Assembly: GCA_035765535.1 (NCBI GenBank) | Contig: DASTXE010000005.1 | Coordinates: 36,684 to 100,683, forward strand | Length of the DNA stretch: 64,000 nucleotides | Source of the DNA: Rickettsiales bacterium | Lineage (GTDB): Bacteria > Pseudomonadota > Alphaproteobacteria > Rickettsiales > JABCZZ01 | Direction of reading: 5' to 3' | The notes under the pieces: generated by a model | Seen by the model: only the letters and a program-made list of their open reading frames with translations | The model's database searches: none | What the model was told of the DNA's origin: nothing | Shown: piece by piece, positions 1,253 to 38,097 of the stretch | Position numbering within the stretch: position 1 is the stretch's first letter | How the letters are laid out: each line of letters starts with the position of its first letter | Program-made: the position numbers and the translations under genes

Positions 1253-2065
1253 ATGTTTTTTAAAAAAGGCAAAGACACTCAAATAGGCGAGTCACCCTCG
1301 CTGGACCAGGAAAAATGGTTCAAGAAACTTTCCCCCAATAGTCCTATCAGGAAGGTGCTGGCAGTCTTTGCCTCCAATAGTATGGGGCTTCCGGAGATTG
1401 AAGGCGATAAAGCTGCGCTCATGGCTGCCAGGCGATTGGGGCGTGGTAAAGATGCCAATGTTGTCATAAACCGCTATTCGGGTGGCAGAAAACCCGAGGA
1501 TAAAGCGCTTGGCGCTAATCCTGCAGCGACGATGTCGCAAGAAGTGATTAATGCGAATACAGCTGCGATGGAAAAGCAGCTTGAGCATGAGGCGGCTGCC
1601 AAAGCGGTTATGGAGAAGCAATTCGGTCAGGAAGCAGTAGCTAAAGCTGAGGAAGAGGAAAGGGCTGCTGCGGCAGCTGCAAAAACGGAAGAAAAAGATG
1701 AAGAAAGGTCTTGTCCGTTCAATGCGAATGAGCGGCTTTTTATCCGGTTGGAGGGGCTGGATCCTCACAATTTGACATCAAGGCAGATGGATCAATACCG
1801 TAACTGGTTTAATACGCATAATCTGGCGGAACTGGAAGCGGAAGAAAGATGTATGAACCGCGTGCTTTCCCCTACGGAAAACGCACTCGAGGCGTCACTG
1901 CATTTTACGGATAAGGAACAGGCGCAGATCGATTCCATCCGGAATGAATTTGCTAAGAAATTCGGTTCGACCTGCTATGCGCAGGATGCAGAGTTGCCTG
2001 ATAACAGCCCCACGGTCGGCACCAAGCAAAGGGTTGCTTCCACCTCTATGGGCGGACCGGATTAA
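1253..2065 (+). CDS. Hypothetical protein, Ala/Glu-rich low-complexity centre; carries a module shared with the 738-aa ORF
   Basis: 270-aa ORF with no recognisable catalytic motif. Residues ~80-113 (KPEDKALGANPAATMSQEVINANTAAMEKQLEHE) recur in the protein at 7832-10048. There is an internal duplication MEKQLEHEAAAKA/MEKQFGQEAVAKA. Confidence 0.5.
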   Translation: MFFKKGKDTQIGESPSLDQEKWFKKLSPNSPIRKVLAVFASNSMGLPEIEGDKAALMAARRLGRGKDANVVINRYSGGRKPEDKALGANPAATMSQEVINANTAAMEKQLEHEAAAKAVMEKQFGQEAVAKAEEEERAAAAAAKTEEKDEERSCPFNANERLFIRLEGLDPHNLTSRQMDQYRNWFNTHNLAELEAEERCMNRVLSPTENALEASLHFTDKEQAQIDSIRNEFAKKFGSTCYAQDAELPDNSPTVGTKQRVASTSMGGPD

Positions 2066-6110: not shown

Positions 6111-7583
6111 ATGTCAGCAATTGTCCCTCGTTTGGAACTAAGGCAAGGCCAGACACTGACGATGACGCAGCAGTTGCAGCAGTCGATCAAGCTGCTGCAG
6201 ATGTCTTCGCTCGAGATCACGGAGTATGTCGAGCAGGAAATCGAAAAAAATCCGCTGCTATCGGGCGAAGATGAAGAAGGCGAAAAGCCGGAGGGGCAGG
6301 AAGAGGCTGAAGTCTTAGAAACAGCTGGGCAGGAGAACGAACAACTCGCCGCGCAGGAGGAAGAGCCTGCAGCTGCTTATGAAGATGAAAGCAGCGTTTA
6401 CGAGAATCCTTACGAAGGCGAACAGTATGAGCCGCGTATCAAAACGCAGGATCATAACTATGAAGAGGGTGAAGGGTTCGAGTCTTATACGGCCAGCGAG
6501 AAAAGCCTGCGCGAATTTCTGCTGGAACAGCTGAACCTGGAAGCAACCGATCCAGTCATGCGCATGATTGGCCAGCACCTGATCGATCTGGTCGATGAAT
6601 CGGGGTATATCAAAGACGATCTGGCTAATATTGCGGCGTTGCTTTCCTGTCCGCCGGAGCTGATCGAGGAAACATTGCGCGTGCTGCAAGGGTTTGAGCC
6701 TATTGGCGTATGCGCGCGTAATCTGGCGGAATGCCTTTCCATTCAGCTGCGTGATAAGAACCGGCTTGATCCTGCCATGGAGAAGCTGCTTGCACATCTG
6801 GACCTGGTTGCAAAGAAAGATATCAAACAGCTCAGCAAGATCTGCGGGGTGGATGAAGATGACATCCGCGAGATGAGCGCAGAAGTACGTGCGCTTAATC
6901 CCCGTCCCGGCAGCGGTTTTCAGCATGAGGCAGTGCAGGCCATCATACCGGATGTATTCCTGCGGCGTGCGGGAGATAACTGGAATATAGAGCTTAACGC
7001 AGCGAGCCTGCCGCGTGTGCTGGTCAATCGCCGTTATTATGCGCAAGTGTCCGGCAAGGCGTCCGATAAGCAGGAAAAGAAATATCTCTCGGAGCAATTT
7101 GCGGCAGCAAACTGGCTCGTGCGGGCTCTGGACAGCCGCGCACAGACTATATTAAAAGTGGCGACCGAAATTGTGAAACAGCAGGAAAATTTTTTTCTCT
7201 ACGGTATCAAATACCTGAAACCGCTGACACTTAAAGAAGTTGCGGATGCAGTGGAACTGCATGAAAGCACGGTCAGCCGCGTGACGACCAATAAATTTAT
7301 TCTGACTGCACGCGGCACGTTTGAATTCAAATATTTCTTTAATGCTTCGATTCAGGGCAGTGACGGCGGAGAGTCTTATTCCAATAAGACCGTTCAATAC
7401 ATGATCAAGGAGCTCATTGATAAAGAAGGAGCAGACAGCGTACTTTCCGATGACACGATTGCAGAGCGCCTGCGGGAGAATGGTATTGAGCTGGCGCGAC
7501 GTACGGTTGCCAAGTATCGCGAGCTGATGAAAATCCCGTCTTCTTCGGTGAGGAAACGGCAGCTGCGTGGAGGCGAAAAGTGA
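6111..7583 (+). CDS. rpoN: RNA polymerase sigma-54 factor
   Basis: 490 aa. N-terminal Gln/Leu-rich region (LRQGQTLTMTQQLQQSIKLLQMS), an acidic linker, and a C-terminal RpoN box (ARRTVAKYRE). Confidence 0.95.
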   Translation: MSAIVPRLELRQGQTLTMTQQLQQSIKLLQMSSLEITEYVEQEIEKNPLLSGEDEEGEKPEGQEEAEVLETAGQENEQLAAQEEEPAAAYEDESSVYENPYEGEQYEPRIKTQDHNYEEGEGFESYTASEKSLREFLLEQLNLEATDPVMRMIGQHLIDLVDESGYIKDDLANIAALLSCPPELIEETLRVLQGFEPIGVCARNLAECLSIQLRDKNRLDPAMEKLLAHLDLVAKKDIKQLSKICGVDEDDIREMSAEVRALNPRPGSGFQHEAVQAIIPDVFLRRAGDNWNIELNAASLPRVLVNRRYYAQVSGKASDKQEKKYLSEQFAAANWLVRALDSRAQTILKVATEIVKQQENFFLYGIKYLKPLTLKEVADAVELHESTVSRVTTNKFILTARGTFEFKYFFNASIQGSDGGESYSNKTVQYMIKELIDKEGADSVLSDDTIAERLRENGIELARRTVAKYRELMKIPSSSVRKRQLRGGEK

Positions 7584-7828
7584 GCAAGTCGTTTCTGGGT
7601 AAATTTGAATCCTCACTCGGCGAACAGGTTTATCTTGTCACCGGCAATGATGCAGGCAGGGATTTATGGCATTATGTGCTAGTGGATAAGGCTAAGCTCC
7701 CGCTGTTCAAGCGTATGGTAAATTCCCCAACTATTGATGTCGCCGAATATGGCAAGGTGCTGTATTCCGGCTGGGGCAAAGAGCCTCCGCAGGAAATTAC
7801 AGAAAAGATCAAACAGGATTACTCTTAA
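7580..7828 (+). CDS. Hypothetical 82-aa protein, translationally coupled to rpoN
   Basis: GTG start overlaps the rpoN TGA (GTGA). A strong SD (GGAGG at 7569-7573) lies 6 nt upstream. No recognisable family. Confidence 0.55.
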   Translation: MSKSFLGKFESSLGEQVYLVTGNDAGRDLWHYVLVDKAKLPLFKRMVNSPTIDVAEYGKVLYSGWGKEPPQEITEKIKQDYS

Positions 7829-7831
7829 GGT

Positions 7832-10048
7832 TCAGGCGCGGGAGGTTTTTGCGTAGGATTCCGTTACCGTATGGAGTGGTGAGCCTGCTTCCGGCATATT
7901 GCTTGCACCAGCCTGCACGCTGACAGGGCCTTCGAAGGTGATGGAAGTCTCATCATGCTCAGGAGCTTCCTGTTTTGCGTAGCGCTGCGTATAGCTTGCT
8001 TTTTCATGCGACACCTTAGAAGTTCCTTCCTGATTGGGCTTCTTTTCAGCCGCAGGTGAGGATTTATGCTCAAACTGCTTTTCCAGTTCTGCTGCATTTG
8101 CATCAATAACATCCTGTGACATTGTCAAAGCAGGATTGGCAGAGGGTGCTTTGTCATCAGGTTTCTTGACGTCTGAATGGTGATTCGCTGGCTTGTCGGT
8201 TTCCTTGCCCCAGTCTTCACGCCACATCTGTACCATGTCGCGGTAATCTTTCTGTTCCTGGGCGACTTTCTTTCCGGTTCCCATCAGGCGGGCAAAGCGT
8301 CCGATCAGACCGCCGATCTGCTGGAAATCGATCTGCATCGTATCGATTCCGCATTCATAGAGTGTCTTATCCAGTCCTCGACCGGTAAAATGTTCTTTTA
8401 AGTCCTTGGCCAGGTCTTCCTGCTTGTCTTTCGGCACGCCGCCTTCCTGCCAGTACTTATCACGAACACCATTGAGCTTATCGACAAACTTCTTAATATG
8501 TTCGCCGGTCAATTCAACGCCTGCGGCTTTCGCAAGTGGCCCCATGACGGTGTAGGCGTAATATTCAAACTGTTCAGGGCGCTGTGAAGGGTTATGTTCG
8601 GCGTATTTGCGCAAATATTGCAGGCCTTCGCGCACACCGAAATAGGAATAAGTCGTATTGCCTGTGAGTACGTCAAGCCCGGGGCTGGTGATATTACGGT
8701 CCTGCATGGATACGACGCGGTAGGCGAGCGATGAGCCATAGTTGATGCCGGGAATAATAGGGACCAGATAAGTTCCGGCTGCGGAGCCGAATATACTGGA
8801 CGACGCGATGAAAGGGATCATTCTGTCGCCGTGATGTTGCCTGACTCTTGCCACGTAATCTTCCAAAGAATCAGGATTGCTGTTTCTAAGGTAAGTGCTT
8901 TTATAGGCGTGCTTACTACCGATCATGACACCCACGGCGCAGAATGCCGCAAATACATATTTGCCGGCGGCGGTGAGCAATTTGTTTTTTGCGTCCGAAT
9001 ATTCAGGGTTCGGCGCCATAATGCCGTTGAGGGATTGCAGCGGCTTTGGAAGGCTTGCTTCTTTAAAGCCAGCGCCACCGGCAAGGCCTTTGCCGGTAAG
9101 CAGTTTGCCTGCTGCAAGACCCAGAGTGCCGCCAGCGGTCAGGCCAATCGCCGACCAGAAACGGTGAACGGGAATAACGGCCAGGGCCGAGTCCGCCATC
9201 CAGTCTGCGACTTTCAGAACCTTGCCGTTCAACAGTCCTTTTTCTTCTTTCTCGTCGCGTTTCTTCCCTACGGCATCGACATATTGCTGCGCCGATATTT
9301 TTGACACATCTTCATTGATATCCACATCGGAAGCTGCGCGTTCCCGCTTGCGCGAGATATAATGCGCGAACAATCCAAGTCCGGCAATCACCGCTCCCAT
9401 TTCACCCGCTGCCCACATGATGCGGCTGCGGGTAGGGGCAGGCGGTGCTTTCTTGGAGTTATTTCCCAGCCAGAAAGCCGTATTCAGCGATGTCCCGTAG
9501 AGAAGGCCGGTAAGACCTGAAGCGCTCGAAGGCCAGGCTGTAAGTCCAGCAGCGAGGCGCCATGTCTTGCCTTTTGCATAGGAATCGACTGCGGCCTGTT
9601 CGGCTGCGGTGAGGCCTTTGCTCGCCGACTTTTTAACCAGATCCTTGAACTTTTGATTTGTGCCATTCTGTTCGAAGAAATAGGCGCTTCCCATGATGGC
9701 GCCTGTTGCACCGCCGACTGCCGGCAGCATCTTATGCACGATCGTCAGTTCCTTATCCCTCTTCTCGTCGGAATGTGGATTGGATTTTATGATGCCATGC
9801 AGAGGGCGCAGAATGGAAGGTACATTTTCTTTCAGGATTTCTTCATGGTGTCCGCCATTGATGCGGTGACCATACATGATATCGCCGATATATTTTACGC
9901 CGTTAAATCCCGCAACCATCCCCAGCACGTTAAACAGGCGGTGCATGGCGGGCAGTGTTTTAAGCGGATTGGAGTTTTCGGCGGGAATGGCGTGAAACCC
10001 GCTCGACACTTTATTCATCCGTTCATGTATATTATCGAATGCTGCCAT
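7832..10048 (-). CDS. Hypothetical large glycine-rich polytopic membrane protein (738 aa) with a hydrophilic C-terminal tail
   Basis: Long uninterrupted ORF. It has several Gly/Ala-rich hydrophobic segments (AVGGATGAIMGSAYFF, IMWAAGEMGAVIAGLGLFAHYI, FWSAIGLTAGGTLGLAAGKLL). The C-terminal ~130 aa are charged and contain the module KPDDKAPSANPALTMSQDVIDANAAELEKQFEHK. Confidence 0.6.
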   Translation of the reverse strand: MAAFDNIHERMNKVSSGFHAIPAENSNPLKTLPAMHRLFNVLGMVAGFNGVKYIGDIMYGHRINGGHHEEILKENVPSILRPLHGIIKSNPHSDEKRDKELTIVHKMLPAVGGATGAIMGSAYFFEQNGTNQKFKDLVKKSASKGLTAAEQAAVDSYAKGKTWRLAAGLTAWPSSASGLTGLLYGTSLNTAFWLGNNSKKAPPAPTRSRIMWAAGEMGAVIAGLGLFAHYISRKRERAASDVDINEDVSKISAQQYVDAVGKKRDEKEEKGLLNGKVLKVADWMADSALAVIPVHRFWSAIGLTAGGTLGLAAGKLLTGKGLAGGAGFKEASLPKPLQSLNGIMAPNPEYSDAKNKLLTAAGKYVFAAFCAVGVMIGSKHAYKSTYLRNSNPDSLEDYVARVRQHHGDRMIPFIASSSIFGSAAGTYLVPIIPGINYGSSLAYRVVSMQDRNITSPGLDVLTGNTTYSYFGVREGLQYLRKYAEHNPSQRPEQFEYYAYTVMGPLAKAAGVELTGEHIKKFVDKLNGVRDKYWQEGGVPKDKQEDLAKDLKEHFTGRGLDKTLYECGIDTMQIDFQQIGGLIGRFARLMGTGKKVAQEQKDYRDMVQMWREDWGKETDKPANHHSDVKKPDDKAPSANPALTMSQDVIDANAAELEKQFEHKSSPAAEKKPNQEGTSKVSHEKASYTQRYAKQEAPEHDETSITFEGPVSVQAGASNMPEAGSPLHTVTESYAKTSRA

Positions 10049-10277
10049 AGAGATGGAGTAATTATTACTTATGTTTATTTTACCATCTGATACTTCCCGC
10101 TCTCAATGTAATTCAATGATGTAAAACAATATTTCATAAAACTGTCATAATTGAAAAGTTGACGAAACCGTTGGTACGGGCTGCACCTGTGGGGTGTATA
10201 TAGGGTGATGATTCCCTGTGCATAAGTTAAATCATGCTGAGAGGCATCTCATTCGTAAATGTTTTTATATACTGTTT

Positions 10278-10457
10278 TTCTTATATTTCTTATGCCTACG
10301 AAAAGGCATGCAACCCTAAGGTTGTTATTCTAATAGTTGTATTATTATTTGATTGATGCTTTTTAGGGTGGAAAAATCTAACAGTAAAAAATGAGTTTTT
10401 CTTATACTTATAATTACTATAAGAATTATAAATATTTCTTGGTAACATCTTTCTTAT
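10278..10457. repeat. Four copies of TTCTTAT(A/G) plus a nested palindrome, inside an AT-rich 474-bp intergenic region
   Basis: TTCTTAT occurs at 10278, 10287, 10399 and 10451. Palindrome CTTATAATT-N8-AATTATAA(A) lies at 10407-10431, containing CTTATA/TATAAG. Function unknown. Confidence 0.3.
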
Positions 10458-10522
10458 AGAAATAATATAAAGCCGTACCTAGAAAACAAGTAACCTGTTC
10501 TCAAATTCGCCTTACGAAAAGA

Positions 10523-33087: not shown

Positions 33088-33120
33088 AACCCCCGCTGGC
33101 CTTTGCCGCGGGGGTTTTTT
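33088..33120 (+). terminator. Intrinsic terminator after clpP
   Basis: AACCCCCGC-11 nt loop-GCGGGGGTT followed by a T-run. It overlaps the stop codon of the convergent GT-C paralog 1. Confidence 0.7.
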
Positions 33121-34765
33121 ATTGCGCAAGGCAATGATGGGCTTTCCCAATGGGTGAGAGGACTTCATTCAGAAAGTCATCTTTCTTTACAGCAACAAAA
33201 ATGACCGGATATTTGTGCATCTCTGCACCGGCGAGCGGAGTTGCGGATGCGAGGGCAGGAAATGTGGTTATCTGTTTATCAAGTGCGTTGCACTCGATCA
33301 GATGCATCATAGGGGCAGAATTGAGATAGGTGTTGACGAAGACGAGATGAGTAAAACGATTCAGGATACCTGCATTCTTTGCCTGCTCCAGCATGGCAAG
33401 GAGCATGCTATCCTTATAAATACGCATATCGCGGCGGTTATTCCAAAGCAGAGTGGTACGATAGTAAGGCATCAGAGCTGCGAGAGCGGAAATATTACGG
33501 GGGTTGCTATCCCCTAATTCCGCATACATTTGCAGGTTGGAGGGGGCGAGCATAATTGCATCCGTTCTGCCCATGACAATAAGTGAATCTGGACCGAGTG
33601 ATTGCAGATAAGCTGAGACCTGTCGCCATTCTGTCTCGGTCATACCGTATTCCGTCTGATCGTCGAAGCGGTAGATAGGATTGGCGCATTGCAGTCCTAG
33701 AGTGAAGAGCGTAAGCGCGATTATAATATTGAAAAAGCGCAAATGCCTGTTGTAATACTGCAAACCCTCGGCAAGCAGCCAGCCCATGGGTATGGCCAGC
33801 AAAGGCAGCATCCAAAGACTATGCCGGTCTCCGGCGAACGGGTAAGCGCGGCTTATCCATAAAGCTGCGGCGAAGCACAATGTTGTGCCTGCCAGTGCCA
33901 GCGTAGATTTAAGCACGGTATTCTTGCCATTGATTACGGGTATCAACGCGAGGACCAATAAGAAGATAAAAGGCCATCCCGGGAATATATAACTGATGAC
34001 GGAGATAATATAAGACGGAAGCAACGCAATCTGCTCCCAGATATTCTGCGAGGCCATTTCCTGGCGGGCTAATGCATCTACGGGCGCGAGCGCCGGTTGC
34101 CATAGCAGATAGGCACTCCAGAAAAGCATAGCAGGAATGGAATTGGCCAGCAGCCAGTTTGCTGCTTCCCTGCGGGGAATCTTTGACTGCAACATACATG
34201 ACAGTTCATATGCGAACAGGCAGAGCGCTGTGAAAATGCCTGAGAAATGCGTAAAACAGGCCAGTCCAGCGCATAGGCTATAGGCAATAAGCCATGAGGT
34301 CTTACGATTTTCGCGCCATGCCAGATAAGCATAAAATGCAGCTGTCAGCAGGCATAGGAATAAGGTGTAATTACGCACAACGTAAGACTCGACGATGCAG
34401 CCCTGGCTGAAGGTAATTAATATGGCTGCGCATATGCCGCAGAACTGGCCGCCCAGCTTTTTACCGGTTACATAATAAAGTGGGATCAGTGCTAAGCCGA
34501 ACAGCAGAGAAAAGCCGCGCGTGAATTGCACGGAGTCGCCCAGCATCTGCCAGTAATGGCGTAAGATATGGCCGAGCGGAGGATGGGTCTCCATCAGTGA
34601 GAACTGCCATACCTGTCGGAGATTCTTGCCCTGAGCGATGCCAATATGCATCAGTTCGTCTGCATGGTAATGGTAAGCGTCCACCCCATGCACGCGCAGC
34701 CAAGTACCCACTGCTACCAGCAGCGCAAGCCATAGCATTGCGGAGCGTTTACTTAAGGCATTCAT
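33119..34765 (-). CDS. GT-C fold membrane glycosyltransferase, ArnT/PMT (family 39/83)-like, paralog 1
   Basis: 548 aa. First-loop acidic motif HADELMH, then ETHPPLGHILRHYWQMLGDS..FTRGFSLLFGLALIPLYY. It has more than 10 hydrophobic segments and a C-terminal soluble domain ending in GKAHHCLAQ. Confidence 0.7.
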   Translation of the reverse strand: MNALSKRSAMLWLALLVAVGTWLRVHGVDAYHYHADELMHIGIAQGKNLRQVWQFSLMETHPPLGHILRHYWQMLGDSVQFTRGFSLLFGLALIPLYYVTGKKLGGQFCGICAAILITFSQGCIVESYVVRNYTLFLCLLTAAFYAYLAWRENRKTSWLIAYSLCAGLACFTHFSGIFTALCLFAYELSCMLQSKIPRREAANWLLANSIPAMLFWSAYLLWQPALAPVDALARQEMASQNIWEQIALLPSYIISVISYIFPGWPFIFLLVLALIPVINGKNTVLKSTLALAGTTLCFAAALWISRAYPFAGDRHSLWMLPLLAIPMGWLLAEGLQYYNRHLRFFNIIIALTLFTLGLQCANPIYRFDDQTEYGMTETEWRQVSAYLQSLGPDSLIVMGRTDAIMLAPSNLQMYAELGDSNPRNISALAALMPYYRTTLLWNNRRDMRIYKDSMLLAMLEQAKNAGILNRFTHLVFVNTYLNSAPMMHLIECNALDKQITTFPALASATPLAGAEMHKYPVIFVAVKKDDFLNEVLSPIGKAHHCLAQ

Positions 34766-36455
34766 GTGCTTTTCCGTTGGGTGCGATCACCTGCTCGAAG
34801 AACTCTTTCTTGGAAACAGTCATGAATGCTGCCGGGGCAAGCGCCTTTTCCTCATCCGAAACCGATTTCTTGAGTGTTATCTCAGGGAAATTAAAGGAGG
34901 GGAAGGAGACGATCTGCTTATCAAGCTGTTTGCAGGTAAAGAGCCATGGCAGAGGTTCATAGCCTTTGGCATAGACGTCCCACACGGTTTTCATAAAAAC
35001 AAGTTTGTCCACGCCGTTCAGCATACCCTTCTGCTGCGCTTGGTTCAACGTTGCAAGCAGGATGCCAGTGGTTTCGATTCGGCGCTCGTAAGGATGAATG
35101 ATAATATGCGTATTAGCATAAGGAATTATCACGGCAGCATTTTTATCCGTGAAAGCATCCTTGCCGAGGTAAGGGTAAGTATCGTGCAACATAACAGCGT
35201 CATCACGCGCGGCGATAATGACGGAGTGGTTGTCCAGTGTCTTCAGGTAATCCGTCATGGCCTGCCAGTTTTCCTGTTTCATCTGGTATTCGCTGGGCTC
35301 TTTTTCAAAGCGTTGTCCGGCGTTGCAGAGAATAAGACTTCCTAGCAAGATCAGTGTGGCGACAGCAATATTGCCATTGATGCGGGTTTTTTGTTCGATA
35401 TACGGGCTCAAAAGCTCGGCCCCATTGCCCATCATCCAGCCTGCAGTGACGATGATGAAGGGCATCACCCATATACCGTGGCGCGTGCCTGCGGGATAAT
35501 AATGATTGATGGCGATTAGGAACATGCCGACTTCCAGCGCGATAACGCAGATCGCCGAGAAATCTCGGAATTTTTTGTCTTCGCGAACGACCGGCAGGAA
35601 CAGTAGAAAGATTATCAGCGGTAGGAAATAAGCCGATGGCAGCACGTATAACGTAGCGGTGAGCGGATTGATCAGGGTGATCAGAATATATTTATACCAC
35701 TCATCGACATGGAAATAAGGTGAAGAAAGCACAATGCCTTTGAAAAACCAGATCAGGTAAATGCCTATGGCGATTGCGGCGAGCGTAAAGTTAAGCGCAA
35801 TCCATTGCAGTTGGCTCCTAAGCGGGCGTTTAGTAACGTAAGCATCCACGGTTTCATAAGCTGCAATAGGAAAGATGGCGAGTATGGCGGAGAAATGCGT
35901 GAGGGCTGCAAGCAGTGCATAGAATACGTAAAGCCATAGATGTTTATTCTGTCTGCTATCGCGCCATTGCACATAGTAATACAGGAACATCGTGGCGAAG
36001 AAGACGAAGATAGAGTAGTTGCGGGTGACATAGGATTCGATGATCGAGCCGTAGCTGTAGGCTGCGAGTGCTGCGGCGCACATACCTGCAAACTGGCCCT
36101 TGAGGCGGTTTCCAATGCAGTAATAGACCGGGATTGTCGCAATGCCGAAGACAAGTGACAGGCAGCGCGAGAACCAGACGGAATCATCTATCTGAAGCCA
36201 GTAATAGCGTAACAGATGGCCAAGCGGCGGATGGGTTTCATAGAGCGAGAGCACCATGAGCTGCTTCAGCGACTTTGCCTTGGCGAGCCAGATATGCAGG
36301 ATTTCATCTTCGCTATAGTAATAGACGCCAGCGCCATGCACGCGGACGTAAATAGCCAGCAGGATGAGAACTGTCAGCCAGCCCCAGATGAAAGTTTTTG
36401 AGAAAATGCGTTCGTTATTCGGCATGGATTTTGTTTCCCGGAGGCGGTTCGACAT
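34749..36455 (-). CDS. GT-C fold membrane glycosyltransferase, ArnT/PMT-like, paralog 2
   Basis: 568 aa, with SEDEILH and ETHPPLGHLLRYYWLQIDDS..FSRCLSLVFGIATIPVYY. The C-terminus is NGKAHECLK. Its stop overlaps the paralog 1 start by 17 nt. Confidence 0.7.
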   Translation of the reverse strand: MSNRLRETKSMPNNERIFSKTFIWGWLTVLILLAIYVRVHGAGVYYYSEDEILHIWLAKAKSLKQLMVLSLYETHPPLGHLLRYYWLQIDDSVWFSRCLSLVFGIATIPVYYCIGNRLKGQFAGMCAAALAAYSYGSIIESYVTRNYSIFVFFATMFLYYYVQWRDSRQNKHLWLYVFYALLAALTHFSAILAIFPIAAYETVDAYVTKRPLRSQLQWIALNFTLAAIAIGIYLIWFFKGIVLSSPYFHVDEWYKYILITLINPLTATLYVLPSAYFLPLIIFLLFLPVVREDKKFRDFSAICVIALEVGMFLIAINHYYPAGTRHGIWVMPFIIVTAGWMMGNGAELLSPYIEQKTRINGNIAVATLILLGSLILCNAGQRFEKEPSEYQMKQENWQAMTDYLKTLDNHSVIIAARDDAVMLHDTYPYLGKDAFTDKNAAVIIPYANTHIIIHPYERRIETTGILLATLNQAQQKGMLNGVDKLVFMKTVWDVYAKGYEPLPWLFTCKQLDKQIVSFPSFNFPEITLKKSVSDEEKALAPAAFMTVSKKEFFEQVIAPNGKAHECLK

Positions 36456-38097
36456 ATTGTTCCAGATAGGTGTTTTCCTTCAGGCAGTGATAGGCTTTTC
36501 CGTTTTCGGATACAACCTGTTCCAGAAAATCTTTCTTGCGGACGATGAGCAGCATCGCCGGATTGGCGAAAGCTTCCTCAGCGGTAAATGATTTCCCCGT
36601 GGGAGGGAAAGTGAATATCTGCCTGTCCAGCTCCGGACAGCCTATCAGCACCGCCTGAGGATAAGAATGCATGAAGATAAGCCTTTCCACGCCGTCCAGC
36701 ATATGCTGTTCCTCTGCCGCCTTCAGCGTAGTGAGAAGAAGATTGCGTGTGCGTAGGCGGCGGTAATACGGATTCACGATCAAAGAGGTGCTCTCGTAGG
36801 GGATTTTCAGGGCCATATCCTTGCCCGTGAAAGCGGCATCGCCTAGATAGGGATAGATATCCTTGATGCGGAACGCTTCGTCGCGTTCGGCAATAATGGC
36901 GTCATGCTCGTCCAGTGTTTCCAGGTAATATTTTACAGCGTCAAGATTTGCCTGTTTGATGCCATATTCGCTATAGTCCGTGAAACGCCGCTGCGGGCTG
37001 TAAGCTAGCAGCCCGGCTGTGAGCAGCATGATTGCCATTGTATGAGTCTTGGAGGAATATGCACTGGCAGCATCTGATATGATGAGGGCAGCGCAGGGAA
37101 TAATAAGCGGAATCAGCCATAAATCGTGCCGCGTGCCGGACGAGGAATAATGCAGCGTGACGATCATGAAGATTTTGATGCCGATGCCGCAAGCCGCCAG
37201 TGCCAGGCAGTTGCGCGTGGCCTGTGAATGTTTTCCCGCACGTAGCGCAAACAATAGAATCAGCAGATAAAGAGCGTAGGGCGAGGGCAGGAGATAATCC
37301 AGATCGTGAAACGGATAAGACAGGGCATTATAGACTGTCTGGGTAAGATCGGTTGGGAAATGGGAATAAGGCTGGGCAAGTGCCAGAGTTTTCCGCCAGG
37401 GCAGTGTAATCAACACAGCTGAAACTGCCAGCAAGGCATTGATCCCAAGCCATTGCAGCAGCTTGGATTTCTGACCCGTACGATAGAGGCGGAGCGCTTC
37501 AAGCACCGCGAGCGGTGTAAGGCTCAGTACCGCAAAGAAATGTGTGAGGCAGGCGAGCAGGCCGAATCCGCCGTATTGTAGTAACGAGCGCAAGGAAGGC
37601 TTTTCACGCCAGGAGAGCCATGCGTCAAAGCTTAAGGAGAGAAAGAGCAGGAAAACTGTGTAATTGCGAGCGATATAGGATTGGATGATGCAGCCGAAGC
37701 TGAATGTTATCAATGCGGCTGCGCAGAGGCCCGCAAACTCACCACCCAGACGGCGGCCGATCCGGTAGTATAGTGGAACGAGTGCGATGCCGAACAGCAA
37801 TGAAAATAATCTTGAAAACCATACCGTATCCGAGATTTCCTGCCAGTAATGGCGCAGGATATTGCCCAATGGCGGGTGGGCCTCATAAAGGGAAAATTGC
37901 AGTACCTGTTTCAGGGAGTCTGCACCGGCAATGGCGGTGTGGAGCAATTCGTCGTCCCCGTAAGCATATTGGTCGACACCGTGCACACGTATGAAAATGG
38001 CGATAATTATCAATATTATCAGCCATGTTCTTATAAAAACTTTGGACATTGGCGGATTATTCCAATAATTATCTGTCTGGTTTTCCATTTTGGGCAA
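36415..38097 (-). CDS. GT-C fold membrane glycosyltransferase, ArnT/PMT-like, paralog 3
   Basis: 560 aa, with GDDELLH and EAHPPLGNILRHYWQEISDT..FSRLFSLLFGIALVPLYY. The C-terminus is NGKAYHCLK plus a 20-aa tail. It overlaps the paralog 2 start. The start could instead be the internal Met at 38049 (MSKVFIRTW). Confidence 0.7.
   Translation of the reverse strand: MPKMENQTDNYWNNPPMSKVFIRTWLIILIIIAIFIRVHGVDQYAYGDDELLHTAIAGADSLKQVLQFSLYEAHPPLGNILRHYWQEISDTVWFSRLFSLLFGIALVPLYYRIGRRLGGEFAGLCAAALITFSFGCIIQSYIARNYTVFLLFLSLSFDAWLSWREKPSLRSLLQYGGFGLLACLTHFFAVLSLTPLAVLEALRLYRTGQKSKLLQWLGINALLAVSAVLITLPWRKTLALAQPYSHFPTDLTQTVYNALSYPFHDLDYLLPSPYALYLLILLFALRAGKHSQATRNCLALAACGIGIKIFMIVTLHYSSSGTRHDLWLIPLIIPCAALIISDAASAYSSKTHTMAIMLLTAGLLAYSPQRRFTDYSEYGIKQANLDAVKYYLETLDEHDAIIAERDEAFRIKDIYPYLGDAAFTGKDMALKIPYESTSLIVNPYYRRLRTRNLLLTTLKAAEEQHMLDGVERLIFMHSYPQAVLIGCPELDRQIFTFPPTGKSFTAEEAFANPAMLLIVRKKDFLEQVVSENGKAYHCLKENTYLEQYVEPPPGNKIHAE

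What the first reader, a model, noticed from the sequence alone, without database searches (positions are those of the whole stretch)
1490..1591. A ~35-aa module shared by two otherwise unrelated orphan proteins
The 270-aa ORF (residues ~80-113, nt 1490-1591) reads KPEDKALGANPAATMSQEVINANTAAMEKQLEHE. The 738-aa membrane ORF (minus strand, nt 8063-8167) reads KPDDKAPSANPALTMSQDVIDANAAELEKQFEHK. That is about 70% identity by eye over ~34 aa, while the rest of the two proteins is not alignable by eye. In the 270-aa protein the EKQ(L/F) part is additionally duplicated (MEKQLEHEAAAKA / MEKQFGQEAVAKA). A short conserved module in a disordered, charged context, shared between a soluble and a polytopic orphan protein, could be a recognition or targeting element. 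Possibilities include a secretion signal, a chaperone- or partner-binding site, or a peptidoglycan/host-binding motif.
Basis: seen in the sequence. Interest (0 to 1): 0.55.

Follow-up and report, generated by a model that had tools for sequence, protein, structure and literature searches.

The report
Shared peptide segment in two orphans
Two otherwise unrelated, uncharacterised proteins of an uncultured Rickettsiales-like bacterium share a genuinely homologous stretch of about 70 residues, an old partial gene copy kept by selection, but it occurs nowhere else and its function is unknown, so it is a modest curiosity.

Summary
ORF270 (1253-2065, +) and ORF738 (7832-10048, -) share a 34-aa core (23/34 identical) inside a ~70-aa homologous stretch. 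BLASTP gives E=1e-14, and composition-matched shuffles give z=21.7 (p~1e-12). Nothing else in the two proteins aligns, even profile against profile.

It is neither an assembly artefact nor a recent conversion. An independent assembly reproduces both copies exactly. Codon-position identity is 27/30/17 of 34, with dN 0.18 and dS ~2. Each copy is also present in an ortholog from another metagenome.

The segment has a disordered Pro/Lys/Asp leader, a helix-prone core TMSQ[DE]V[IV][DN]ANxAx[ML]E[KR]x[LF]E, and two degenerate 14-aa Ala/Glu/Lys repeats.

No further carrier was found in the window, in 12 related loci, in 1.84 billion cluster representatives, in GTDB genomes or in JGI metagenomes. More distant members of the 738 family lack it.

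Tests for a Rickettsia-palindromic-element-like insertion, a C-terminal secretion signal, a coiled coil and known families were negative or inconclusive.

Best reading: an old partial duplication retained as a short docking or helical module. The evolution is shown; the function is only inferred. Interest is low to moderate.

The parts
1253..2065 (+). ORF270 (GenBank HEU5047714.1, VFT64_07715). An orphan, non-hydrophobic 270-aa protein that carries the module at aa 65-136.
   Evidence: It is a real gene: its ortholog P0009 is 59-61% identical with whole-gene dN/dS 0.11. There are no Pfam, NCBIfam or PHROG hits. No other relative exists among 1.84e9 representatives. Maximum KD19 is 0.67, so no TM segment or signal peptide is evident.
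1445..1660 (+). Extended homologous stretch in ORF270 (aa 65-136).
   Evidence: BLASTP alignment, tblastn and the four-sequence alignment A3.
1490..1591 (+). Module core in ORF270 (aa 80-113): KPEDKALGANPAATMSQEVINANTAAMEKQLEHE.
   Evidence: In the AF2 model the leader has pLDDT ~32, and a helix starts at residue 96 with pLDDT ~70.
1568..1651 (+). Two tandem 14-aa units, MEKQLEHEAAAKAV (1568-1609) and MEKQFGQEAVAKAE (1610-1651). The first overlaps the end of the core.
   Evidence: 9/14 aa and 27/42 nt identical; 2 of 1000 shuffles reach the score. The units are conserved in P0009 (87% identity over aa 114-136). Degenerate counterparts are present in the ORF738 tail and in P0002.
7832..10048 (-). 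ORF738 (GenBank HEU5047722.1, annotated from Met11 as 728 aa, VFT64_07755). An orphan all-helical, probably membrane-associated protein with an internal duplication. Its conserved core ends at W609 and is followed by a variable tail.
   Evidence: There is no Pfam, NCBIfam or PDB sequence match and no PDB fold match.
8000..8209 (-). Extended homologous stretch in the ORF738 tail (aa 614-683).
8063..8164 (-). Module core in ORF738 (aa 629-662): KPDDKAPSANPALTMSQDVIDANAAELEKQFEHK.
   Evidence: In the AF2 model the tail (aa 617-738) is low-confidence, and its only helix of four or more residues is 646-658, inside the core.

Best explanation
The shared stretch is true homology produced by an old partial duplication. 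About 200 nt were copied between the region encoding the flexible C-terminal tail of ORF738 and the middle of the small orphan ORF270, which lies 6.5 kb away on the other strand. The direction of copying is unresolved. The copy predates the split from the relatives sampled in two other metagenomes, and both copies have since been kept by selection on the peptide, not on the DNA.

The module has three parts: a disordered Pro/Lys/Asp leader (KPxDKAxxANP), a ~20-residue helix-prone core (TMSQ[DE]V[IV][DN]ANxAx[ML]E[KR]x[LF]E), and two degenerate Ala/Glu/Lys-rich 14-residue helical repeats.

The most likely function, which is inferred and not shown, is a short docking helix in a flexible region. 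Through it the soluble protein and the tail of the membrane-associated protein would contact the same partner, or each other, which would tie ORF270 to the ORF738 pathway. It is a private feature of a narrow lineage, not a widespread targeting signal.
For: Shown:
- Homology is significant (E=1e-14; z=21.7 and p~1e-12) and restricted to the module.
- Identity by codon position is 27/34, 30/34 and 17/34, with dN 0.18 and dS ~2.0 (ratio 0.09) between the two copies. This indicates an old event with selection on the protein.
- The module is present in P0002 (ORF738 ortholog, 85% identical, different SRA run) and in P0009 (ORF270 ortholog, 59% identical, another run). The module profile scores 117-131 bits on all four proteins.
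- An independent Logan assembly is 100% identical over 11,123 nt covering both genes, so this is not an assembly chimera.
- Within the fast-evolving ORF738 tail the core is a conserved island. It is 62% identical between orthologs, against 33% and 45% for the flanking tail pieces.
- The AF2 models give a low-confidence leader followed by a helix in both proteins.

Inferred: the docking or partner-binding role, from the general behaviour of short conserved helix-forming segments in disordered regions.
Against: - The module is not the best-conserved part of either protein. The ORF738 core is 91% identical between orthologs against 62% for the module; the ORF270 C-domain is 70% against 50% for the module core.
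- ORF738 relatives at 68% identity or less lack the module, so it is dispensable for the family's basic function.
- The hydrophobic moment of the helix is not above shuffles, so no clear amphipathic binding face is evident.
- No partner, no co-occurring gene and no further carrier was found.
- The topology of the ORF738 tail, and hence whether the two modules share a compartment, is unknown.
- The AF2 models are of low confidence (mean pLDDT 53 and 60).
Confidence: 0.55

Rival explanations
1. Relic linker. The stretch is a leftover of a partial duplication that now serves only as a flexible or helical spacer (Ala/Glu/Lys-rich, EAAAK-like), with no specific recognition role. Its conservation reflects only the general constraints on such a spacer.
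For: The ORF738 tail evolves much faster than the core (58% against 91% identity). The module is absent from ORF738 relatives at 68% identity or less. A long single helix covering aa 96-153 is predicted in ORF270. The hydrophobic moment is not significant. No partner or further carrier is known.
Against: The invariant positions form a specific non-repetitive pattern (N, MSQ, V, AN, A, E, E across four sequences), not a compositional one. The core is more conserved than the neighbouring tail pieces. dN/dS is ~0.1 with near-saturated synonymous sites. Shuffles that keep composition never approach the observed score.
Confidence: 0.25
2. Secretion or translocation signal. The module marks both proteins as substrates of an export system, such as the flagellar type III apparatus encoded next to ORF738 or a type IV system elsewhere in the genome, or it binds an export chaperone.
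For: ORF738 lies directly beside flgH, flgA, flgG and flgF, with fliI further along. The P0003 locus has fliC, fliD and fliS within 10 kb. ORF270 has no signal peptide yet is an orphan with a charged disordered region, which is typical of effectors.
Against: The module is internal. It ends 76 residues before the C-terminus of ORF738 and 157 before that of ORF270, and it starts at residue 80 of ORF270, so it is neither an N-terminal T3SS signal nor a C-terminal T4SS signal. The other ORF738-family loci have no flagellar or secretion genes nearby. There are only two carrier families. No sigma-54 promoter links the genes to the flagellar regulon.
Confidence: 0.08
3. Selfish in-frame insertion. 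The stretch is a small mobile DNA element of the Rickettsia palindromic element (RPE/MITE) type that inserted in frame into two unrelated genes.
For: RPEs of ~150 bp insert in frame into unrelated genes of Rickettsia and encode a conserved peptide (PMC10969869, read). Here the host is annotated as Rickettsiales, the two carriers are unrelated, the copies are on opposite strands, and both lie in flexible regions.
Against: There are only two copies in 64 kb plus about 9 kb of flank, both coding and in the same frame, with none intergenic. No palindrome was found: RNA fold z-scores are -2.1 and -1.4, and the two folds differ. No terminal inverted repeats or target duplications are shared by the copies. 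The codon-position pattern shows peptide-level, not DNA-level, conservation. No copies were found in GTDB genomes or JGI metagenomes.
Confidence: 0.05
4. Host-derived mimic. The module descends from a captured fragment of a eukaryotic dynein light chain LC8 gene (strand 1 and helices 1-2), reused as a host-mimicking peptide by a symbiont.
For: The module profile aligns colinearly with residues 6-57 of DYNLL2 (M.QqDaVD....AMEK..E...AA..K) at 14-16 bits and E 0.11-0.6 against PDB. The same chains reappear with the ORF270 profile at E ~2.
Against: The E-values are at chance level. Pfam Dynein_light is not returned for any of the four segments even at E<=10. A spike HR1 construct scores as well through three 7-bit repeats, which shows that this score range is populated by generic helices. 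An LC8 half cannot adopt the LC8 fold.
Confidence: 0.03
5. Chance similarity of two charged low-complexity regions, or an assembly or binning artefact.
For: Both regions are charged and rich in Ala, Glu and Lys.
Against: z=21.7 against composition-preserving shuffles, E=1e-14 with composition-adjusted BLASTP, orthologs from other samples carry the module, and an independent assembly is identical.
Confidence: 0.01

Closest known systems
Rickettsia palindromic elements (RPE), MITE-like repeats that insert in frame into protein-coding genes (PMC10969869)
   Same: A ~100-200-nt stretch encodes a conserved peptide inside two unrelated genes of a Rickettsiales-annotated genome. It is in frame in both and lies in flexible, presumably surface-exposed regions.
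   Different: There is no palindromic structure and no terminal repeats. Only two copies were seen, none of them intergenic. Conservation is at the peptide level, with third codon positions half randomised. No sequence relation to RPE families could be tested here.
Short linear motifs / molecular recognition features (MoRFs): short helix-forming islands of conservation in disordered regions
   Same: It is a 20-35-residue conserved island in a region predicted to be disordered. It is predicted to form a short helix, is more conserved than its immediate flanks, and occurs in otherwise unrelated proteins.
   Different: Classical motifs are shorter (3-12 residues) and usually arise convergently. 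Here the sharing is by descent (a ~70-aa colinear copy including an internal repeat), and no binding partner is known.
Partial gene duplication / segment shuffling between paralogous fragments in bacterial genomes
   Same: Colinear homology confined to one segment, the two genes 6.5 kb apart in one genome, and age shown by near-saturated synonymous sites.
   Different: Such fragments usually decay. Here both copies stay in frame and under purifying selection in at least two lineages each.
ER/K-type single alpha-helix and EAAAK-like helical linkers
   Same: The distal part (EHEAAAKAVMEKQFGQEAVAKAEEEERAAAAAAK) is rich in Ala, Glu and Lys and is predicted as one long helix in ORF270.
   Different: The proximal core (ANPxxTMSQxVIDAN) is not of that composition, and it carries most of the invariant positions.

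Membership tests
Rickettsia palindromic element (RPE) / MITE | Many copies per genome, including intergenic ones | tested here: not met
   There are two copies in the 64-kb window and none in the ~9 kb of extra flank. Both are coding and in the same frame. The remainder of the genome could not be read.
Rickettsia palindromic element (RPE) / MITE | Palindromic sequence or terminal inverted repeats with a stable hairpin | tested here: not met
   RNA fold z-scores are -2.1 and -1.4, and the two copies fold differently. No shared terminal inverted or direct repeats were found.
Rickettsia palindromic element (RPE) / MITE | In-frame insertion into unrelated genes, visible as presence/absence against orthologs | tested here: inconclusive
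   The stretch is in frame in two unrelated genes. It is absent from P0003-P0007, but their tails are unalignable, so no clean empty site can be defined.
C-terminal type IV / N-terminal type III secretion signal | Location at the extreme C-terminus (T4SS) or N-terminus (T3SS) of the substrate | tested here: not met
   The core is aa 80-113 of 270 and aa 629-662 of 738, with 157 and 76 residues following it.
C-terminal type IV / N-terminal type III secretion signal | Carriers associated with a secretion system | tested here: inconclusive
   ORF738 is adjacent to flagellar genes in this window. The P0003 locus also has flagellar genes within 10 kb. The loci of P0004, P0005 and P0007 show no such neighbourhood. 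Export itself is not testable with these tools.
Dynein light chain LC8 (Pfam PF01221) | Significant match to the family profile or to solved LC8 chains | tested here: not met
   The best PDB E-value is 0.11 at 16 bits. Pfam returns no Dynein_light hit for any of the four segments at E<=10.
Coiled coil / amphipathic docking helix | Regular heptad pattern or a significant hydrophobic moment | tested here: inconclusive
   The hydrophobic moment is 0.23-0.33. Between 10% and 31% of shuffles reach it. A helix is predicted, but at low confidence.
Any curated protein family (Pfam, NCBIfam, PHROGs, PADLOC, PDB sequences) | Hit above the curated threshold | tested here: not met
   There are no significant hits for either protein or for the module. 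The best weak hits are PADLOC PtuB, E 8.6e-4 on ORF270 aa 170-226, outside the module, and a spike S2' five-helix construct in PDB, E 0.0024 summed over three ~7-bit repeats.

The most novel reading that the evidence does not exclude
The module is a lineage-specific handle with two possible forms. In the first, the soluble orphan ORF270 docks onto the tail of the ORF738 membrane protein, or both dock onto one common partner, which would define a new two-component system next to the flagellar cluster. In the second, more exotic form, it is a host-derived LC8-like fragment spread into two genes of a protist-associated Rickettsiales-like bacterium. Neither form is excluded, and neither is supported beyond conservation of the peptide.
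Probability: 0.12. Interest if true: 0.5.

Novelty: new member of a known kind. Interest (0 to 1): 0.25.

Why it matters
If the docking reading is right, the module gives the first functional handle on two families with no annotation. It would link a small soluble orphan to a conserved but uncharacterised membrane-associated family found in a handful of uncultured alphaproteobacteria. It also supplies a defined peptide for pull-down or two-hybrid experiments.

It is also a clean small example of a protein segment copied between unrelated bacterial genes and then kept by selection. Its reach is narrow, however. There are two families, four known sequences, no cultured organism and no link to a known pathway, so the general significance is limited.

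Tried and rejected
1. Word-index search of 5.8e9 proteins with the 4-sequence module profile. It returned nothing at E<=10, not even the four source proteins, which score 117-131 bits locally. The positive control failed, so this result is uninformative and is not counted as a negative.
2. HMMER search of 1.84e9 cluster representatives with the ORF270+P0009 profile. It returned only the query's own cluster and P0010, a repetitive junk-like ORF (E 5.7e-4, outside the module). ORF738 itself was not returned, although it would score E ~1e-8 at that library size. Its 50% cluster is probably represented by a member that lacks the module. The negative therefore holds for representatives only.
3. Degenerate-pattern scans for the module in GTDB genomes and JGI metagenomes. 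There were 170 and 542 pattern matches, none confirmed. The window's own genome was not returned by the GTDB scan, so there was no positive control there either.
4. A scan for ORF270 relatives in JGI metagenomes found nothing.
5. The RPE/MITE idea was rejected.
6. A 'vestigial' module in P0003 (ANTETSMLSQ...), suggested by the MAFFT alignment, is not significant against shuffles or against the HMM, and was dropped.
7. Concerted evolution or gene conversion within the genome. The in-genome pair is more alike (68%) than either ortholog pair (50% and 62%). Informative sites split 4:2:2 in favour of the orthology topology, and the distances are non-additive, so this is unresolved and is not claimed.
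8. The LC8 and spike-HR1 resemblances are at chance level.
10. A sigma-54 promoter scan gave 43 matches against 43 expected, with none upstream of either gene.
11. The ORF738 family has no conserved gene neighbourhood.

Full report
**1. The observation**

The window carries a 270-aa ORF at 1253-2065 (+) and a 738-aa ORF at 7832-10048 (-).

- BLASTP of the two proteins gives one significant segment: aa 65-136 against 614-683, 34/72 identical, E=1e-14 with composition adjustment. Everything else has E>1.
- The 34-aa core (aa 80-113 against 629-662) is 68% identical in protein and 73% in DNA.
- I shuffled the charged region of ORF270 2000 times and realigned it to the ORF738 tail. The shuffles gave 33.4 +/- 5.9 against the observed 162 (z=21.7, Gumbel p~1e-12).
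- Profile-profile comparison of the two family alignments aligns only 31 module columns.
- At DNA level this is the only inverted repeat of 40 nt or more in the whole 64-kb window.
Two tandem 14-aa units are 9/14 identical, 2 of 1000 shuffles reach the score, and the units are conserved in the ortholog.

**2. Source and artefact check**

Both proteins are annotated hypothetical proteins of a 'Rickettsiales bacterium' MAG: HEU5047714.1 and HEU5047722.1, on a 225,893-bp contig. A Logan assembly of run SRR25158471 is 100% identical over 11,123 nt spanning both genes. A MAG-assembly chimera is therefore excluded.

**3. Age and selection**

Between the two copies, identity by codon position is 27/34, 30/34 and 17/34. 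NG86 gives dN 0.18 and dS ~2.0, a ratio of 0.09. The copy is old, and what is conserved is the peptide, not the DNA.

Each gene has an ortholog from another metagenome that carries the module: P0002 (85% identical to ORF738) and P0009 (59% identical to ORF270). A profile built from the four segments scores 117-131 bits on all four proteins and below 1 bit on P0003-P0007.

Both genes are under purifying selection overall, at 0.07 and 0.11. In ORF738 the conserved core (aa 1-613) is 91% identical between orthologs and the tail 58%. Within the tail, the module core (62%) and the extreme C-terminus (79%) stand out against the pieces that flank the module (33% and 45%). In ORF270 the module core is 50% identical, the second repeat region 87% and the C-terminal domain 70%.

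The branching order of the four copies cannot be resolved. Informative sites split 4:2:2, slightly favouring orthology, and the distances are non-additive. I therefore claim neither gene conversion nor a direction of transfer.

**4. Anatomy**

The four-sequence alignment shows three parts:
- a variable Pro/Lys/Asp leader;
- an invariant scaffold N..(..)MSQ.V..AN.A..E...E, summarised as TMSQ[DE]V[IV][DN]ANxAx[ML]E[KR]x[LF]E;
- two 14-residue Ala/Glu/Lys-rich units that are clear in the ORF270 family and degenerate in the ORF738 tails.

In ORF270, AF2 models the leader at pLDDT ~32, then a long helix at 96-153 with pLDDT ~55-72. In ORF738, the low-confidence tail (aa 617-738) has only one helix of four or more residues, at 646-658, inside the core. 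The hydrophobic moment of that helix does not exceed shuffles.

**5. The carriers**

ORF270 is non-hydrophobic (maximum KD19 0.67). It has no family hit and no relative other than P0009 among 1.84e9 representatives.

ORF738 belongs to a small family found in a few uncultured alphaproteobacterial MAGs. The protein is all-helical with Gly/Ala-rich, weakly hydrophobic segments, of which only two reach KD 1.6. It has an internal duplication, aa ~30-130 against ~285-390, E=3e-11. It has no PDB sequence or fold match and no conserved neighbourhood.

In this genome ORF738 lies between rpoN plus a conserved 82-aa orphan on one side and the flgH-flgA-flgG-flgF cluster on the other. ORF270 lies between a DUF167 gene and a ykuD-folC pair.

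**6. Search for further carriers**

No third copy was found in:
- the window in any frame;
- ~9 kb of extra flank;
- 11 related loci;
- 1.84e9 cluster representatives;
- GTDB species genomes;
- JGI metagenomes.

Three caveats apply. The word-index search failed its positive control and is discarded. The representative library hides carriers whose cluster representative lacks the module, as happened to ORF738 itself. The rest of this MAG could not be read.

**7. Mechanism**

What is shown is an old partial duplication kept in frame and under purifying selection in two unrelated genes of a narrow lineage.

What is inferred is that the conserved helix-prone island in a flexible region acts as a docking element for a common partner, or between the two proteins.

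The main rival is that it is only a helical spacer relic. More distant members of the ORF738 family lack it, and it is not the most constrained part of either protein.

A secretion signal is unlikely because the module is internal and the association with flagellar genes is not conserved across the family.

An RPE-like mobile insertion has a known Rickettsia precedent (PMC10969869). It fails on copy number, palindromy, terminal repeats and the codon-position pattern.

The resemblances to the N-terminal half of LC8 and to coronavirus HR1 are at chance level.

**8. Novelty and score**

The module matches no described family. As a phenomenon it is a lineage-private segment shared by descent, which is a known kind of event. 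It gives a concrete experimental handle on two orphan families, but it has no demonstrated function and no wider distribution. Interest is 0.25.

Noticed in passing
window 7832-10048 (-), aa ~30-130 vs ~285-390 of ORF738: ORF738 contains an internal duplication. Two ~100-aa units share the pattern HR(L/F)..G..G...(loop)..LP..L..L.GI...NP..SD....L....G..GS. They are 27% identical with BLASTP E=3e-11, so the family core is built from a repeated membrane-associated unit.
   Followed up: partly
window 33119-38097 (-): Three tandem paralogous genes of 548, 568 and 560 aa with weak PMT_2/PMT (ArnT-like glycosyltransferase) hits. They also appear as DNA repeat families with ~1645-nt spacing.
   Followed up: partly
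window 7580-7828 (+): An 82-aa ORF overlaps the rpoN stop by 4 nt and has no family hit. It is conserved in the same position, between rpoN and the ORF738 ortholog, in L001 from another sample.
   Followed up: no
window 10049-10522: A 474-nt AT-rich intergenic region lies between flgH and the start of ORF738. That is unusually long for this compact window. No Rfam hit was found.
   Followed up: no
window 10019-10048 (-): GenBank annotates ORF738 from Met11 (728 aa). The ortholog P0002 conserves the ten upstream residues MAAFDNIHER exactly, and Logan aa, so the longer start is more likely.
   Followed up: partly
window 1760-1930 (+), ORF270 aa 170-226: The C-terminal domain of ORF270 (the best-conserved globular part, containing PHNL...THNL) gives a weak PADLOC hit to PtuB (E 8.6e-4, 17 bits). 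The ORF270 family profile also gives a weak PDB match to proteasome activator PA28 alpha over profile positions 129-192, which span the acidic linker and the start of this domain (E 0.09). Neither is significant.
   Followed up: no
window 7832-7945 (-), ORF738 aa 701-738: The extreme C-terminus of the ORF738 family keeps a small conserved element (S-I/V-x-F-x-G-x-V ... G) even though the tail around it is unalignable. It is 79% identical between the two closest orthologs.
   Followed up: no
tool behaviour: The word-index protein search with a short (72-column) profile returned no hit at E<=10, even for the proteins the profile was built from. Negatives from that tool with short charged profiles should not be trusted without a positive control.
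   Followed up: yes
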